Below are positions 47,893 through 52,714 of a DNA stretch of 64,000 nt, piece by piece (within the stretch, counting starts at the first letter, position 1; each line of letters opens with the position of its first letter). A program made the position numbers and the translations under genes. The stretch is from Escherichia coli. GTDB lineage: Bacteria; Pseudomonadota; Gammaproteobacteria; Enterobacterales; Enterobacteriaceae. Where the stretch lies: NCBI RefSeq assembly GCF_030013205.1, contig NZ_CP122648.1; one strand, written 5' to 3'. The notes under the pieces were generated by a model. That model did not search any database. It was not told the DNA's origin and saw only the letters and a list, made by a program, of their open reading frames with translations.

Positions 47893-48546
47893 TTATATCC
47901 CTTCTTCACTCTCTTTTTTCGCTTCTGCCTTCTCGATTTCACGATACCAGCGCGGATGGTGTTTCTTCGCCCAGCGACGGCTCACCTTCCCTTCGATCAT
48001 CCCTTTAATCGATCCTTTCACCCAGAAAGCCATATACATATGGATCAGGATGGCGTGGATCAGGATGATACCCGCAGCCGCATGGATCAGCAGGCTATAA
48101 CGGACAACCTGTATCGGGAAGTACTGCGCAAAGTACGGACGCCAGATAATCACCCCGGTCACCAGCAGCACGAAAATCATGCTCATGATTGACCAGAACA
48201 TCATCTTTTGCCCGGCGTTGTACTTACCGACATCCGCCACTTTGTGCTCATTGCCTTTTAATACTTCGACAATGTTCAACAGCCACGGAATATCTTTCTT
48301 ATCCGGGATGTTGTGATGCACAAAACGCACAAACATAAACATCAGCGCGACGAAAATCGCAATGCCGAAGAACGGGTGCAAAATGCGTCCCATCTGCGGC
48401 GTACCGAAGGTTTGCGTCAGCCATTGCAGCGTCGGGAAGAAGAACGAAATCCCGGACAGCGCCACCAGGAAGAAGCAAATCACCACGGTCCAGTGACAGG
48501 CGCGATCAATAAATTTGGTGCGCACAATCATTTTCGACTTACTCAT
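47893..48546 (-). CDS. fdnI: Formate dehydrogenase-N gamma subunit (cytochrome b556, 217 aa)
   Basis: Membrane protein with conserved His residues; start at the internal Met [12 protein letters not shown]. Confidence 0.9.
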
Positions 48547-49423
48547 GATGATCCTCCTCGTCATCGTCCACTTCCTTATTCGGGCCAATACCGATGTAGT
48601 GGAAAATCAACCCGGCAAAAGTGGCAATAAAGCCAGCCGCTGCCAGCGGTTTCAACGCGCCTTTCCACAGGCTTACCGAGGTATCGATCTTCGGATCTTT
48701 CGGCAGACCGTGATACAGCTCCGGCTGATCGGCGTGATGCAGCACGTACATAACGTGCGTACCACCGACCCCTTCCGGGTTGTAGACGTCAGCATGTTCG
48801 TAACCACGCGCTTTCAGTTTCGCCACGCGCTGTTCCGCCAGCTCCAGCATCTCCTTCTTGGTGCCGAAGTGGATAGCCCCGGTCGGACAGGTTTTCACAC
48901 AAGCCGGTTCCTGGCCGACGCTGACGCGATCGACGCAGAGCGTGCATTTATATACCCGGTTATCCTCTTTGTTGAGGCGCGGAATATTAAACGGACACCC
49001 GGCAATGCAGTAACCACAGCCGATGCAGTTTTCCGACTGGAAATCGACAATCCCGTTAGCGTACTGAATGATTGCACCAGCAGACGGGCACGCCTTCAGG
49101 CAGCCCGGATCTTCACAGTGCATACAGCCGTCTTTACGGATCAGCCACTCCAGCTTGCCGTTCTGTTCGGTTTCGCTAAAGCGCATCACCGTCCAGGACT
49201 TGGCGCTCAGATCTGCGGGGTTATCGTAAACCCCGACGCAGTGCCCCACTTCATCACGGATGTCGTTCCACTCCGAACACGCCACCTGACAGGCTTTACA
49301 GCCGATACAGGTGGAAACGTCGATAAGTTTTGCGACTTCTGCTTTGTAATCACGCACCTGAGAAGGCGGCGTGATGGAGTTAGTTGCGGACCTTTTGATA
49401 ATGTCCTGCGTTTCCATAGCCAT
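48539..49423 (-). CDS. fdnH: Formate dehydrogenase-N beta subunit (4x[4Fe-4S], 294 aa)
   Basis: Four CxxCxxCxxxC ferredoxin motifs; overlaps the fdnI start by 8 nt. Confidence 0.9.
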
Positions 49424-49435
49424 CTGTTCGCCCCC

Positions 49436-52400
49436 TTACGCCTTCTCGATGTTGACTAAGAACGCTTTATATTCCGGCGTTTGCGAGTTTGCATCACCGA
49501 CATTCGGCGTCAGAGTGTTAGCGATATAACCTTTACGCGCGACACCCTCAAAGCCCCAGTGGATTGGAATACCCACCGTTTCAACCTGCTGACCGTTTAC
49601 ATTCAGCGGTTTCAGACGGCGCGTTACCACCGCCACCGCGCGGATAAAGCCACGCTTGCTTGAGACAGTGACACGATCGCCATTATTAATGCCTTTCGCC
49701 GCCGCCAGCGTTTCGCTGATTTCCACAAACTGTTCCGGCTGAGCAATTGCGTTGAGCAACGCGTGCTTGGTCCAGGTGTGGAAGTGCTCGGTCAGACGAT
49801 AGGTCGTACCCACATACGGGAACTGCTCTTTTTTACCCATCCGCAGCGCGTCTTGTTCATACAGACGAACGACCGGGTTAGACACCACGTTCGGATGCAG
49901 CGGGTTAGTGCCCAGCGGCGTTTCAATTGGCTCGTAGTGTTCCGGGAACGGACCTTCCGCCATTTTGTTGATGGCAAACAGGCGTCCCATCCCTTCCGGC
50001 TGCATGATAAACGGCCCGGTTGGCGTACCCGGCGCGGCATTGCCGAAGTCCGGAATATCGTTACCCGTCCACTTGCTGCCGTTCCACTGGATCAGCATCC
50101 GTTTCGGATCCCACGGTTTACCGCTGATATCCGCCGAAGCACGGTTGTAGAGTACGCGACGGTTGAGCGGCCACGCCCAGGCCCATCCCAGCGTATTCCC
50201 CAGACCGGACGGGTCGGAGTTATCGCGGTTAGCCATCTGGTTGCCCTGCTCTGTCCAGCTACCGGTGTAGATCCAGCAAGACGATGCGGTTGTACCGTCA
50301 TCACGCAGATGCGCAAAGCTACTCAGCAACTGACCTTTCTTCGCAATCAGCACGCCATTAGCATCATAGAGATCTTCCAGCGCATAGCCGTTATTCTCTT
50401 TCGCCACTTCGTCAGACTGCGGTTCGTGCGGCTGCTTGTAGTTCCAGCTCATCTTCATCAGCGGTTCTACGCCTTTACCACCTTCGGCCTGGTACAGCTC
50501 GCGCAGATGATGGTAGATACCCGCCAGAATTTCGCCGTCGTTACGCGCTTCGCCCGGCGCATCCTGACCTTTCCAGTGCCACTGCAACCAGCGACCGGAG
50601 TTAGCGATAGAACCATCTTCTTCAGCAAAGCAGGTCGAAGGCAGACGGAATACCTCAGTCTGAATAGACGCCGGATCGACATCGTTCGACTCGCCGTGGT
50701 TCTGCCAGAAGGTAGAAGTTTCAGTCACCAGCGGATCGATAACCACCATGTACTTCAGCTTGCTCAGGCAGCTCACCACTTTGTTTTTGTCCGGGAAGGA
50801 CGCAACCGGGTTAAAGCCCTGGCAGAAATAACCGGTGACTTTGCCTTCATCCATCATGTTGAAATACTTGATGACGTCGTAGGTCTGGTCCCACTTAGGC
50901 AGCCAGTCGTAGCCCCAGTTGTTCTCTTTCTGCGCGGCATCGCCGTAGAAAGATTTCATCAGGCTAACGAAGAACTTCGGATAGTTGCTCCAGTAGTTCA
51001 CCTGATCAGCCAGCGTCGCTTTCGGCGTGTTCGCTTCCAGATACGACTGCAAATCAACCTGTTTTTCTGACGGCAGCGTCAGATAACCTGGCAGGCTGGT
51101 AGAGAGCAGGCCTAAGTCAGTCAGGCCCTGAATGTTGGAGTGACCACGCAATGCGTTCACGCCGCCACCAGCCATACCCATGTTACCGAGCAGCAATTGG
51201 ATCATCGCCATGGTGCGGATGTTCTGCGCACCCACGGTGTGCTGCGTCCAGCCCAGCGCGTACAGGAAGGTGGTGGTGCGATCCGGCGCGCTGGTGGAGG
51301 CCAGCACTTCACACACTTTCAGGAAGTCGGCTTTTGGCGTACCGCAGATGTTTTCTACTACATCCGGCGTGTAGCGGGAAACGTGCTCTTTCAGCAGGTT
51401 CCACACACAGCGCGGATGAGTCAGTGTTTCATCGCGTTTCGCATAGCCGTTTTCATCGAACTGATAGTTCCAGGACGATTTATCGTACTGGCGTTTTTCA
51501 GCGTCGTAGCCGCTGAACAGACCGTCTTCGAAAGCAAAATCATCACGCACCAGCAGGCTGGCATTGGTGTAATGCTTAACGTATTCGGCATTGATTTTGT
51601 TGTTTTCGATCAGGTAGCGCAAAACGCCAGACAGGAACGTAATGTCCGTACCGGAACGAATAGGTGCGTAAATATCCGCTACAGAAGCGGTACGCGTAAA
51701 ACGGGGATCGACAACGATCAAGGTTGCATCGTTGTTGTTTTTCGCTTCCATCGCCCAGCGGAAACCGACGGGATGCGCTTCAGCAGCGTTACCGCCCATC
51801 ACCATCACGACGTTAGCGTTTTTGATATCCACCCAGTGGTTGGTCATCGCACCGCGACCAAATGTTGGAGCAAGACTTGCTACCGTTGGTCCGTGTCAGA
51901 CGCGCGCCTGGTTGTCTACCGCCAGCATCCCGAGGGAGCGGGCAAATTTCTGGGTCAGCATCCCGGTTTCGTTGCTGGCACCGGAGGCACACAGCATACC
52001 GGTAGAAAGCCAACGGTTTACCGTTACGCCCTGCTCGTTCTTTTCAATAAAGTTAGCGTCACGGTCAGCTTTCATCAGCTTCGCAATACGGGAGAATGCT
52101 TCTTCCCAGCTAATGCGCTGCCATTTGTCAGAACCTGGCGCACGATATTCCGGGTAGCGCAGACGGTTTTCGCTGTTGACGTAATCCAGCAAACCGGCCC
52201 CTTTCGGGCACAGCGCACCACGGCTTACCGGATGATCCGGGTCACCTTCAATGTGATAAATCGCTTCTCTGGCGTTTTTCGCGCCATCACCCAGGCTATA
52301 CATCAATAGCCCGCAACCTACGGAACAGTATGTGCAGGTGTTACGGATCTCTTTAGCGCGTAATAATTTGTAGTTTCGCGCCTGAGCCAGTGCTTGCTTT

Positions 52401-52483
52401 GGGGCAAAGCCCAATGCCGCTACTGTTGTTCCAGCCATACCGCCCGCGCAGATTTTAAAAAATTGTCTGCGACTGACGTCCAT
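49436..52483 (-). CDS. fdnG: Formate dehydrogenase-N alpha subunit, selenoprotein with in-frame UGA at codon 196 (1015 aa)
   Basis: Two adjacent same-frame minus-strand ORFs (51896..52483 and 49436..51847) separated by TGA at 51896..51898; Tat-type N-terminus MDVSRRQFFK; sequence across the UGA reads ...QARV-U-HGPTVASLAPTFGRG. Confidence 0.9.
51855..51895 (-). other. Putative SECIS hairpin directly 3' of the fdnG UGA
   Basis: mRNA segment downstream of UGA contains the small hairpin AGCAAG-UC-UUGCU at the distance expected for a bacterial SECIS. Confidence 0.55.
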
Positions 52484-52547
52484 TGCTTTCCTCTTTTTTC
52501 AGGGGTATTACTGCGCGAGGAAACTAACAGTAAAATTCTGAATCTTT

Positions 52548-52561
52548 TTGCGCGAAATCAA
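52548..52561 (-). promoter_or_regulatory. Putative FNR site in the fdnG promoter
   Basis: Reverse strand reads TTGATTTCGCGCAA (FNR consensus TTGAT-N4-ATCAA, one half-site degenerate), about 70 nt upstream of the fdnG ATG. Confidence 0.45.
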
Positions 52562-52607
52562 AAAGAACACGTGTTTGCCACAAAATAATCCGCCTGCGCA
52601 AATTGAC

Positions 52608-52623
52608 CTACCTCAATAGCGGT
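52608..52623 (-). promoter_or_regulatory. Putative NarL 7-2-7 heptamer pair upstream of fdnG
   Basis: TACCTCA-AT-AGCGGTA: two inverted TACYYMT-like heptamers with 2-bp spacing. Confidence 0.45.
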
Positions 52624-52714
52624 AGAAAAACGCACCACTGCCTGACAGGCCAGTTAAAAAAATGCTATAAAATTCAGCTTAATTTTTAACGGCAAGAGAG
52701 ACAAAACAGCGAGC

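What the first reader, a model, noticed from the sequence alone, without database searches (positions are those of the whole stretch)
52548..52623. FNR and NarL sites arranged for anaerobic nitrate induction of fdnGHI
An FNR half-site pair and a 7-2-7 NarL heptamer pair lie at appropriate distances upstream of fdnG, indicating the regulatory region is intact.
Basis: partly seen in the sequence, partly recalled or inferred. Interest (0 to 1): 0.25.

Follow-up and report, generated by a model that had tools for sequence, protein, structure and literature searches.

The report
Known fdnG FNR/NarL promoter region
This is the already well-studied switch region in front of the E. coli nitrate-linked formate dehydrogenase genes (fdnGHI), with its oxygen-sensor (FNR) and nitrate-sensor (NarL) binding sites intact, so it is an ordinary, textbook feature.

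Summary
The window is E. coli, 100% identical over 25 kb to porcine ETEC chromosomes. fdnG lies on the minus strand, with its ATG at 52483. On the fdnG strand, an FNR box TTGATTTCGCGCAA (52561..52548) sits 71.5 bp upstream of the ATG. A NarL 7-2-7 inverted repeat TACCGCT-AT-TGAGGTA (52624..52609, one base beyond the finding's end) lies 62 bp further upstream. This matches the published K-12 layout: FNR at -42.5 and NarL heptamers at -109/-100. Every element is identical to K-12; the three intergenic SNPs fall between the sites. Consensus counts alone are not above chance in 64 kb. However, in 80 distinct Enterobacteriaceae fdnG upstream regions the FNR box and an extended -10 (TGnTAGTTT) are conserved, and a 7-2-7 sits exactly 62 bp from the FNR box in 73 of the 80. 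fdnGHI itself is intact. One nuance was not in the finding. A second, much better FNR-consensus site (52603..52616, about -97.5) is found only in Escherichia and overlaps the -100 NarL heptamer. It is the site that a published FNR ChIP-seq study predicted under the yddG/fdnG peak.

The parts
52548..52561 (-). FNR box of the fdnG promoter. It reads TTGATTTCGCGCAA on the fdnG strand. Its centre is 52554.5, which is -42.5 relative to the inferred start and 71.5 bp upstream of the ATG.
   Evidence: Sequence. Identical to K-12. PWM 10.3 bits, rank 11 of 63,987. An equivalent box was found in all 82 Enterobacteriaceae sequences examined (variants listed). Published position is -42.5 (PMC3349551).
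52609..52624 (-). NarL/NarP 7-2-7 inverted heptamer pair. On the fdnG strand it reads TACCGCT (52624..52618, centre -109), AT, TGAGGTA (52615..52609, centre -100). The pair is centred at -104.5.
   Evidence: Sequence. 2 mismatches to TACYYMTNNAKRRGTA. Identical to K-12. The same register, 62 bp from the FNR centre, is kept in 73 of 80 distinct sequences despite 63 different 16-mers. The outer TA dinucleotides and position 6 are the most conserved columns. Supported by the literature.
52521..52529 (-). Extended -10 element TGtTAGTTT of the fdnG promoter. There is no -35 hexamer; the FNR box occupies that position.
   Evidence: Read from the sequence. It is the strongest conserved block downstream of the FNR box in the anchored alignment. 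The generic sigma-70 scan finds no -35/-10 pair here, as expected for an activator-dependent promoter.
52512..52512 (-). Inferred fdnG transcription start (an A), 29 nt upstream of the ATG.
   Evidence: Inferred, not measured. It is the position that places the FNR centre at -42.5 and the heptamers at -100/-109 as published. It lies 8 nt downstream of the conserved -10 hexamer.
52578..52590 (-). Conserved block at -78..-66. It reads GATTATTTTGTGG here; the family consensus is GACTATTwaGkrG. It overlaps the published weak NarL heptamer at about -77.
   Evidence: High per-column conservation in 80 sequences. It is a poor match to the NarL consensus. Its role was not resolved here.
52633..52639 (-). 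Position of the published -124 NarL heptamer. It reads AGTGGTG on the fdnG strand; the reverse complement is CACCACT.
   Evidence: Located only by the published coordinate. It is not conserved outside Escherichia and is variable within Escherichia.
52603..52616 (.). Second, near-consensus FNR site, TTGAGGTAGGTCAA on the fdnG strand, centred at about -97.5. It overlaps the -100 NarL heptamer by 8 bp.
   Evidence: It is the only exact TTGA-N6-TCAA in the window. It is the top-scoring 14-mer of 63,987 with the FNR PWM, at 15.7 bits. Myers et al. 2013 Table S6 lists it as the predicted FNR site at the yddG/fdnG ChIP-seq peak. It is present in only 7 of 82 sequences, all Escherichia-type.
49436..52483 (-). 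fdnG coding sequence, 1015 codons, with the in-frame TGA for selenocysteine at codon 196 (51898..51896).
   Evidence: ORF list. Comparison with K-12 shows 3 amino-acid differences and the single expected internal TGA. RefSeq annotation of an identical genome.
47893..49423 (-). fdnH (48539..49423) and fdnI (47893..48546).
   Evidence: ORFs. Each has one amino-acid difference from K-12 and no internal stops. Annotation.
52642..52671 (+). Putative divergent yddG promoter: cTGACA, 18 nt, TGcTATAAA.
   Evidence: Read by eye. The -10 part is moderately conserved at a fixed distance from the fdnG FNR box (columns -159..-151). Not tested further.

Best explanation
This is the E. coli fdnGHI (formate dehydrogenase-N) control region, functionally equivalent to the K-12 one.

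Under anaerobiosis an FNR dimer binds the box centred at -42.5 (52548..52561). That box replaces a -35 hexamer, and FNR recruits RNA polymerase to a weak extended -10 (TGtTAGTTT, 52529..52521), which is class II activation.

With nitrate, NarX/NarQ phosphorylate NarL. A NarL-P dimer then binds the 7-2-7 inverted heptamers at -109/-100 (52624..52609). The centre-to-centre distance of 62 bp is about 6 helical turns, so NarL sits on the same face of the DNA as FNR. NarL-P strongly boosts FNR-dependent transcription of fdnGHI.

NarP can occupy the same 7-2-7 site. From my own knowledge of Wang & Gunsalus 2003, NarP does not activate there.

Shown here: presence of the sites, their identity to K-12, their positions and their conservation. 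Inferred from the literature: protein binding, the transcription start and the activation mechanism.
For: - **Identity to K-12.** The region is 99% identical to K-12 MG1655 over 321 bp, and all boxes are unchanged.
- **Distribution in E. coli.** It is present between yddG and fdnG in 5,413 of 5,426 complete E. coli genomes.
- **Published layout.** The 62-bp spacing equals the published -42.5 and -104.5 positions (PMC3349551). A 7-2-7 is reported for fdnG (PMC2718512). [quoted passage not shown]
- **In vivo occupancy.** There is an FNR ChIP-chip/ChIP-seq peak in the yddG/fdnG intergenic region, and fdnG is 'activated by FNR in NO3- and by NarL' (PMC3688515).
- **Phylogenetic footprint, 80 distinct Enterobacteriaceae sequences.** The FNR half-sites and the extended -10 are near-invariant. 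The 7-2-7 register at exactly 62 bp has a mean of 2.9 mismatches against 8.9 +/- 1.06 elsewhere, while the flanks are randomised.
- **Link to fdnG rather than yddG.** Three loci with no yddG within 1.5 kb keep the same arrangement.
- **Operon integrity.** fdnGHI is intact with Sec196.
Against: - No binding, expression or transcription-start data exist for this strain. The start is back-calculated.
- The primary papers (Li & Stewart 1992; Li et al. 1994; Darwin et al. 1996; Wang & Gunsalus 2003) could not be read here. Positions therefore come from a secondary citation and from my own recollection.
- The -42.5 box is a weak FNR match. It is below the PWM threshold used by Myers et al., who list only the upstream site.
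- The published ChIP-seq peak centre (1545309, U00096.2) is about 10 bp from the upstream site centre and about 44 bp from the -42.5 centre.
Confidence: 0.93

Rival explanations
1. In vivo, FNR mainly occupies the stronger Escherichia-specific box at about -97.5 (52603..52616), not the box named in the finding. On this reading FNR and NarL-P compete for, or exchange on, overlapping DNA, and the -42.5 box is filled only with help from NarL.
For: - The upstream site is the best FNR PWM hit in the whole window: 15.7 against 10.3 bits.
- It is the only exact TTGA-N6-TCAA core in the window.
- It is the only site in this intergenic region that passes Myers et al.'s threshold (Table S6).
- The ChIP-seq peak centre lies about 10 bp from it.
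- That ChIP was done without nitrate, a condition in which fnr deletion did not change fdnG expression (Table S9).
- It overlaps the -100 heptamer by 8 bp.
Against: - The upstream site is absent from 75 of 82 relatives, which nonetheless keep the -42.5 box and the 7-2-7. It therefore cannot be the core of the mechanism.
- Only the -42.5 box is correctly placed relative to the conserved -10.
- From my own recollection, published deletion and mutation work assigns anaerobic induction to -42.5.
- The ChIP peak centres are labelled 'approximate', and two sites 55 bp apart would merge into one peak.
Confidence: 0.25
2. The motifs are chance matches with no regulatory role.
For: Counts of consensus matches in the 64-kb window are no higher than in shuffled sequence.
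Against: - Exact identity to the experimentally characterised K-12 region.
- Strong, register-specific conservation across genera while neighbouring columns are randomised.
- An in vivo FNR peak.
Confidence: 0.01
3. The NarL and upstream FNR sites serve, or also serve, the divergent yddG promoter. With a putative yddG start near 52678, the 7-2-7 centre would be at about -61.5 and the upstream FNR site at about -68.5.
For: - yddG and fdnG are divergent neighbours in 73 of 80 loci.
- A near-consensus extended -10 promoter for yddG can be read at 52642..52671.
- Its -10 is kept at a fixed distance from the fdnG FNR box.
- -61.5 is a classical class I activator position (general knowledge).
Against: - The yddG promoter is near-consensus and should not need an activator.
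- Myers et al. assign the peak's target to fdnG (Table S9).
- Three loci lacking yddG keep the arrangement.
- The yddG start is unmapped.
Confidence: 0.1

Closest known systems
E. coli K-12 fdnG operon control region (fdnGp; Li & Stewart 1992, Li et al. 1994, Darwin et al. 1996, Wang & Gunsalus 2003)
   Same: It is the same locus and the same neighbours (yddG, divergent). The FNR box, both 7-2-7 heptamers, the extended -10, the ribosome-binding site and the start codon are all identical, and the spacings are the same.
   Different: There are three single-base differences in non-site positions, at about -84 and -59/-58. The window carries the allele that is commoner among E. coli genomes; the K-12 allele is 97.9% identical over 141 bp.
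narG operon control region (FNR at -41.5 plus upstream NarL heptamers and IHF)
   Same: It follows the same logic: a class II FNR site plus distal NarL-P sites gives anaerobic, nitrate-induced expression (PMC4549865).
   Different: narG lacks a 7-2-7 site and depends on heptamers near -89 and -195. From my own knowledge it also needs IHF. fdnG uses a single 7-2-7 at -104.5.
napF, nirB, nrfA and yeaR control regions (7-2-7 sites)
   Same: They use the same kind of NarL/NarP dimer target, an inverted heptamer pair with a 2-bp spacer.
   Different: In those promoters the 7-2-7 lies close to or overlapping the core promoter, for example -40 to -49 at napF and -38 to -47 at yeaR. Here it is about 60 bp upstream of the FNR site.

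Membership tests
Orthologue of the K-12 fdnG promoter region | Sequence identity and the same genomic context (yddG divergent; fdnGHI downstream) | tested here: met
   99% identity over 321 bp. Annotation of an identical genome gives yddG | fdnG fdnH fdnI. fdnGHI is 98.5% identical to K-12 at the nucleotide level and is intact.
Class II FNR-dependent promoter | FNR box resembling TTGAT-N4-ATCAA | tested here: met
   TTGATTTCGCGCAA has 2 mismatches, both in one half-site. PWM score is 10.3 bits, rank 11 of 63,987. The match is weak but conserved in all relatives.
Class II FNR-dependent promoter | Box centred near -41.5 relative to the transcription start, replacing the -35 hexamer | tested here: inconclusive
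   The box centre is 28.5 bp upstream of the first base of the conserved -10 hexamer, so it falls at -40.5 to -42.5 for plausible starts. The published value is -42.5. No start-site data could be obtained.
Class II FNR-dependent promoter | FNR binding and FNR-dependent anaerobic transcription | not testable with these tools
   Published for K-12: an FNR ChIP peak at yddG/fdnG, and activation by FNR in nitrate. Not measured for this strain.
NarL/NarP 7-2-7 site | Two heptamers matching TACYYMT in inverted orientation with a 2-bp spacer | tested here: met
   TACCGCT-AT-TGAGGTA has 1 mismatch per heptamer. Folded half-site frequencies across 80 sequences reproduce T-A-(C/A)-Y-Y-M-T.
NarL/NarP 7-2-7 site | Binding of phosphorylated NarL and nitrate-dependent activation | not testable with these tools
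   Taken from the literature: 7-2-7 reported for fdnG, NarL heptamers at -100/-109, regulation by NarL/NarP.

The most novel reading that the evidence does not exclude
In Escherichia only, a high-affinity FNR site at about -97.5 (52603..52616) has evolved on top of the promoter-proximal NarL heptamer. Without nitrate, FNR would sit there unproductively, which would explain the ChIP-seq peak centre and the absence of an fnr effect in nitrate-free medium. NarL-P would have to displace it, or hand FNR over to the weak -42.5 box. This would add an FNR/NarL competition step, or a link to the divergent yddG promoter, to the classical fdnG model.
Probability: 0.2. Interest if true: 0.4.

Novelty: already known. 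Interest (0 to 1): 0.08.

Why it matters
It matters little beyond annotation. It confirms that this porcine ETEC-like E. coli keeps the textbook anaerobic, nitrate-inducible control of formate dehydrogenase-N.

Two by-products may be mildly useful to specialists:
- The FNR-to-NarL spacing of exactly 62 bp is kept across most Enterobacteriaceae genera, which argues for a stereospecific interaction.
- Escherichia carries an additional strong FNR box overlapping the NarL site. Genome-wide ChIP analysis picked this box as 'the' fdnG FNR site, whereas the classical functional site is the weaker -42.5 box.

Tried and rejected
- **Primary papers.** Li & Stewart 1992 (PMC206306), Wang & Gunsalus 2003 (PMC180993), Lin & Stewart 2010 (PMC3068693) and Stewart & Bledsoe 2003 (PMC151514) are not held. 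Site positions therefore come from a secondary citation.
- **Literature searches.** Searches for '104.5', 'ChIP-exo' and 'fdnG promoter' gave nothing useful.
- **MotifAdjuster supplements.** They hold no fdnG entry.
- **Start-site data.** The supplements of Kim et al. 2012 contain no fdnG start site.
- **Generic promoter scan.** The sigma-70 promoter/terminator scan found nothing in 52400..52800. This is uninformative for an activator-dependent promoter with a 3-of-6 hexamer, and the scan also misses the yddG TATAAA because it requires a T at position 6.
- **Consensus counting as a significance test.** It was tried and found non-discriminating, so it was replaced by PWM ranking and a phylogenetic footprint.
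- **Synteny as a way to separate fdnG-linked from yddG-linked function.** It is only weakly informative, because 73 of 80 loci keep yddG.
- **The conserved -78..-66 block as a second 7-2-7.** It was the second-best register, with a mean of 5.1 mismatches, but it is too poor a match to call.

Full report
**What is there**

The finding lies in the 231-bp intergenic region 52484..52714. This region sits between two divergent genes.
- On the minus strand is a 1015-codon gene starting at 52483. It has an in-frame TGA at codon 196.
- On the plus strand is a 293-codon gene starting at 52715.

A 321-bp query across the region matches 5,413 of 5,426 complete E. coli genomes, always between yddG and fdnG. 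A 25-kb stretch of the window is 100% identical to several porcine ETEC chromosomes. There RefSeq annotates adhP, yddM, fdnI, fdnH, fdnG, yddG, an ompC-like porin, narU and narZ. The features in the finding must therefore be read on the minus strand.

**The motifs**

On the fdnG strand:
- The FNR box is TTGATTTCGCGCAA (52561..52548). One half-site is perfect (TTGAT). The other is degenerate (GCGCAA, which is TTGCG on the other strand).
- The NarL site is TACCGCT-AT-TGAGGTA (52624..52609), a 7-2-7 inverted repeat with one mismatch per heptamer to TACYYMT.

The finding's start coordinate is exact. Its end coordinate is one base short.

**Is it more than chance?**

Counting consensus matches does not show it.
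- TTGATNNNNATCAA with up to 2 mismatches occurs 55 times in the window, against 43 +/- 6.6 in shuffles.
- The 7-2-7 pattern with up to 2 mismatches occurs 6 times, against 4.2 +/- 2.0.

I then built a symmetrised PWM from 62 FNR sites that lie under ChIP-seq peaks in Myers et al. 2013 Table S6, leaving out fdnG's own entry. The finding's box scores 10.3 bits and ranks 11th of 63,987 positions. That is just under the range of the training sites, 11.5 to 20.4.

The decisive evidence is comparative.

**Comparison with K-12**

Aligned to MG1655 (NC_000913.3), the 321 bp differ at four positions. One is a synonymous-looking change inside yddG. The other three are intergenic, at window 52596 and at 52571-52570. 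In fdnG promoter numbering these are about -84 and -59/-58, between the boxes.

The FNR box, both heptamers, the -10 region, the Shine-Dalgarno sequence and the ATG are all identical to K-12.

The window's allele is the common one among E. coli. Over 141 bp, 4,096 records are at least 99% identical, whereas K-12-type strains are 97.9% identical.

Within Escherichia the half-sites are invariant. Variation falls in the FNR spacer, in position 7 of the -109 heptamer (T or C), and in the flanks.

**Positions**

Babujee et al. 2012 (PMC3349551) summarise the K-12 layout as an FNR site at -42.5 and NarL heptamers at -77, -100, -109 and -124, citing Darwin et al. 1996.

In the window the FNR centre is 52554.5 and the heptamer centres are 52612 and 52621.
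- Setting FNR at -42.5 puts +1 at 52512, which is an A 29 nt before the ATG.
- With that start the heptamers fall exactly at -100 and -109.
- The 62-bp centre-to-centre spacing is therefore an internal consistency check, and it is met.

The start itself is inferred; I found no start-site data.

An extended -10, TGtTAGTTT (52529..52521), lies 8 nt upstream of that A. There is no -35 hexamer, and the generic sigma-70 scan finds nothing. Both points fit a class II activator-dependent promoter.

**Phylogenetic footprint**

A scan of one genome per species with the first 195 residues of FdnG returned 80 loci from Escherichia, Citrobacter, Salmonella, Enterobacter, Klebsiella, Raoultella, Kluyvera and other genera.

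Anchoring the upstream regions on the FNR box gave 82 sequences, 80 of them distinct. This count includes the window and K-12.
- **FNR box.** It is TTGATTT-N3/4-GCAA in essentially all sequences. TTGATTTGACGCAA is the commonest form, in 58.
- **Extended -10.** It is near-invariant.
- **7-2-7 register.** At exactly 62 bp upstream of the FNR centre, the 16-mer has a mean of 2.9 mismatches to the 7-2-7 consensus. All other registers average 8.9 +/- 1.06. 73 of 80 sequences have at most 4 mismatches there, although 63 different 16-mers occur.
- **Most conserved columns.** These are the outer TA dinucleotides and position 6 of each heptamer (C on the left, G on the right), as expected for NarL heptamers.
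- **Flanks.** Columns flanking the repeat are essentially random.
- **Exceptions.** The two Salmonella loci and one other have a spacing of 61 bp. Four distant genera have their best 7-2-7 about 39-42 bp from the box instead.
- **Distance to the ATG.** It varies (67-75 bp in most, 119-128 bp in Citrobacter and Salmonella) while the FNR-NarL spacing does not.

A further conserved block at -78..-66 (GACTATTwaGkrG; GATTATTTTGTGG in E. coli) overlaps the published weak -77 heptamer, but it matches the NarL consensus poorly. The -124 heptamer is not conserved outside Escherichia.

**Operon integrity**

fdnG, fdnH and fdnI are full length and 98.5% identical to K-12 at the nucleotide level. They carry 3, 1 and 1 amino-acid differences respectively. 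The only internal stop is the TGA at FdnG codon 196.

**Mechanism**

The best explanation is the established one.
- Anaerobic FNR binds at -42.5 and recruits RNA polymerase to a promoter with no -35.
- Nitrate, through NarX/NarQ, phosphorylates NarL.
- NarL-P binds the 7-2-7 at -104.5, about six helical turns away and so on the same face of the DNA, and strongly stimulates transcription.
- From my own knowledge of Wang & Gunsalus 2003, NarP can bind the same site without activating.

Literature support available here:
- The fdn operon is regulated by Fnr, NarL and NarP (PMC1805755).
- fdnG is one of four genes with a reported 7-2-7 site (PMC2718512).
- NarL dimers prefer 7-2-7 sites (PMC4549865).
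- There is an FNR ChIP peak in the yddG/fdnG intergenic region, and fdnG is 'activated by FNR in NO3- and by NarL' (PMC3688515).

Binding and activation were not, and cannot be, tested here.

The best FNR match in the whole window is not the finding's box. It is TTGAGGTAGGTCAA at 52603..52616, about -97.5.
- It is the only exact TTGA-N6-TCAA core in the window.
- It scores 15.7 bits and ranks first.
- It overlaps the -100 NarL heptamer by 8 bp.

Myers et al. 2013 Table S6 lists exactly this sequence (1545292 in U00096.2; PatSer 14.43) as the predicted FNR site at the yddG/fdnG ChIP-seq peak. The -42.5 box is not in their list. Their approximate peak centre, 1545309, is about 10 bp from the upstream site's centre and about 44 bp from the -42.5 centre. 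The coordinate offset of 1,976 was checked against L001.

That experiment was done without nitrate, a condition in which fnr deletion did not change fdnG expression (Table S9).

The upstream site occurs in only the seven Escherichia-type sequences of the 82. It therefore cannot be part of the conserved core mechanism. It may be an Escherichia-specific extra layer, or it may be fortuitous. I rate a real regulatory role at about 0.2.

**Relation to yddG**

yddG is the divergent neighbour in 73 of 80 loci. A near-consensus extended -10 promoter for it can be read at 52642..52671.

Three loci without yddG within 1.5 kb (L063, L075, L076) keep the FNR box and the 7-2-7 at 62 bp. This ties the arrangement to fdnG.

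**Verdict**

The feature is already known, and interest is low.

Noticed in passing
window 52603..52616: A near-consensus FNR site, TTGAGGTAGGTCAA on the fdnG strand, lies at about -97.5 and overlaps the -100 NarL heptamer. It is the top FNR PWM hit in the whole window. Myers et al. 2013 list it under the yddG/fdnG ChIP-seq peak. It is present only in Escherichia.
   Followed up: partly
window 52578..52590: A block at -78..-66 of the fdnG promoter (family consensus GACTATTwaGkrG) is strongly conserved across Enterobacteriaceae. It overlaps the published weak -77 NarL heptamer but matches the NarL consensus poorly. It could be a weak NarL site, an alpha-CTD contact or another factor's site.
   Followed up: partly
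window 52642..52671 (+): A putative near-consensus extended -10 promoter for yddG: cTGACA, 18 nt, TGcTATAAA. Relative to its likely start (about 52678), the NarL 7-2-7 would be centred near -61.5.
   Followed up: no
window 59497..63935: In the identical ETEC genome, narZ (nitrate reductase Z alpha subunit) is annotated as truncated, missing its C-terminus. It is followed by a small hypothetical gene and an IS91-family transposase. The second respiratory nitrate reductase therefore appears to be disrupted by an insertion sequence in this strain.
   Followed up: no
window 53855..54955 (+): An intact 366-aa OmpC-type porin gene lies next to yddG. K-12 has only the short yddL remnant at this position.
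   Followed up: no
L007-L016, L019-L023, L031, L033 (Citrobacter, Salmonella and a few other loci): In these genera the conserved FNR box is 119-128 bp from the fdnG ATG instead of 67-75 bp. The 5' leader therefore carries about 50-55 extra bases, while the FNR-NarL spacing is unchanged.
   Followed up: no
L077, L079, L080, L081 (Enterobacteriaceae LSJC7, Tenebrionibacter, Cedecea, Buttiauxella): In these more distant genera the best 7-2-7 match lies about 109-111 bp from the fdnG ATG. Where the FNR box distance was recorded (L077, L081) this is about 39-42 bp upstream of the box rather than 62 bp, roughly two helical turns closer.
   Followed up: no
window 58965..58978: The second-best FNR PWM hit in the window, GTGACGTTGATCAA, lies inside narU upstream of narZ. 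Myers et al. list the equivalent K-12 site as predicted but not bound in ChIP.
   Followed up: no
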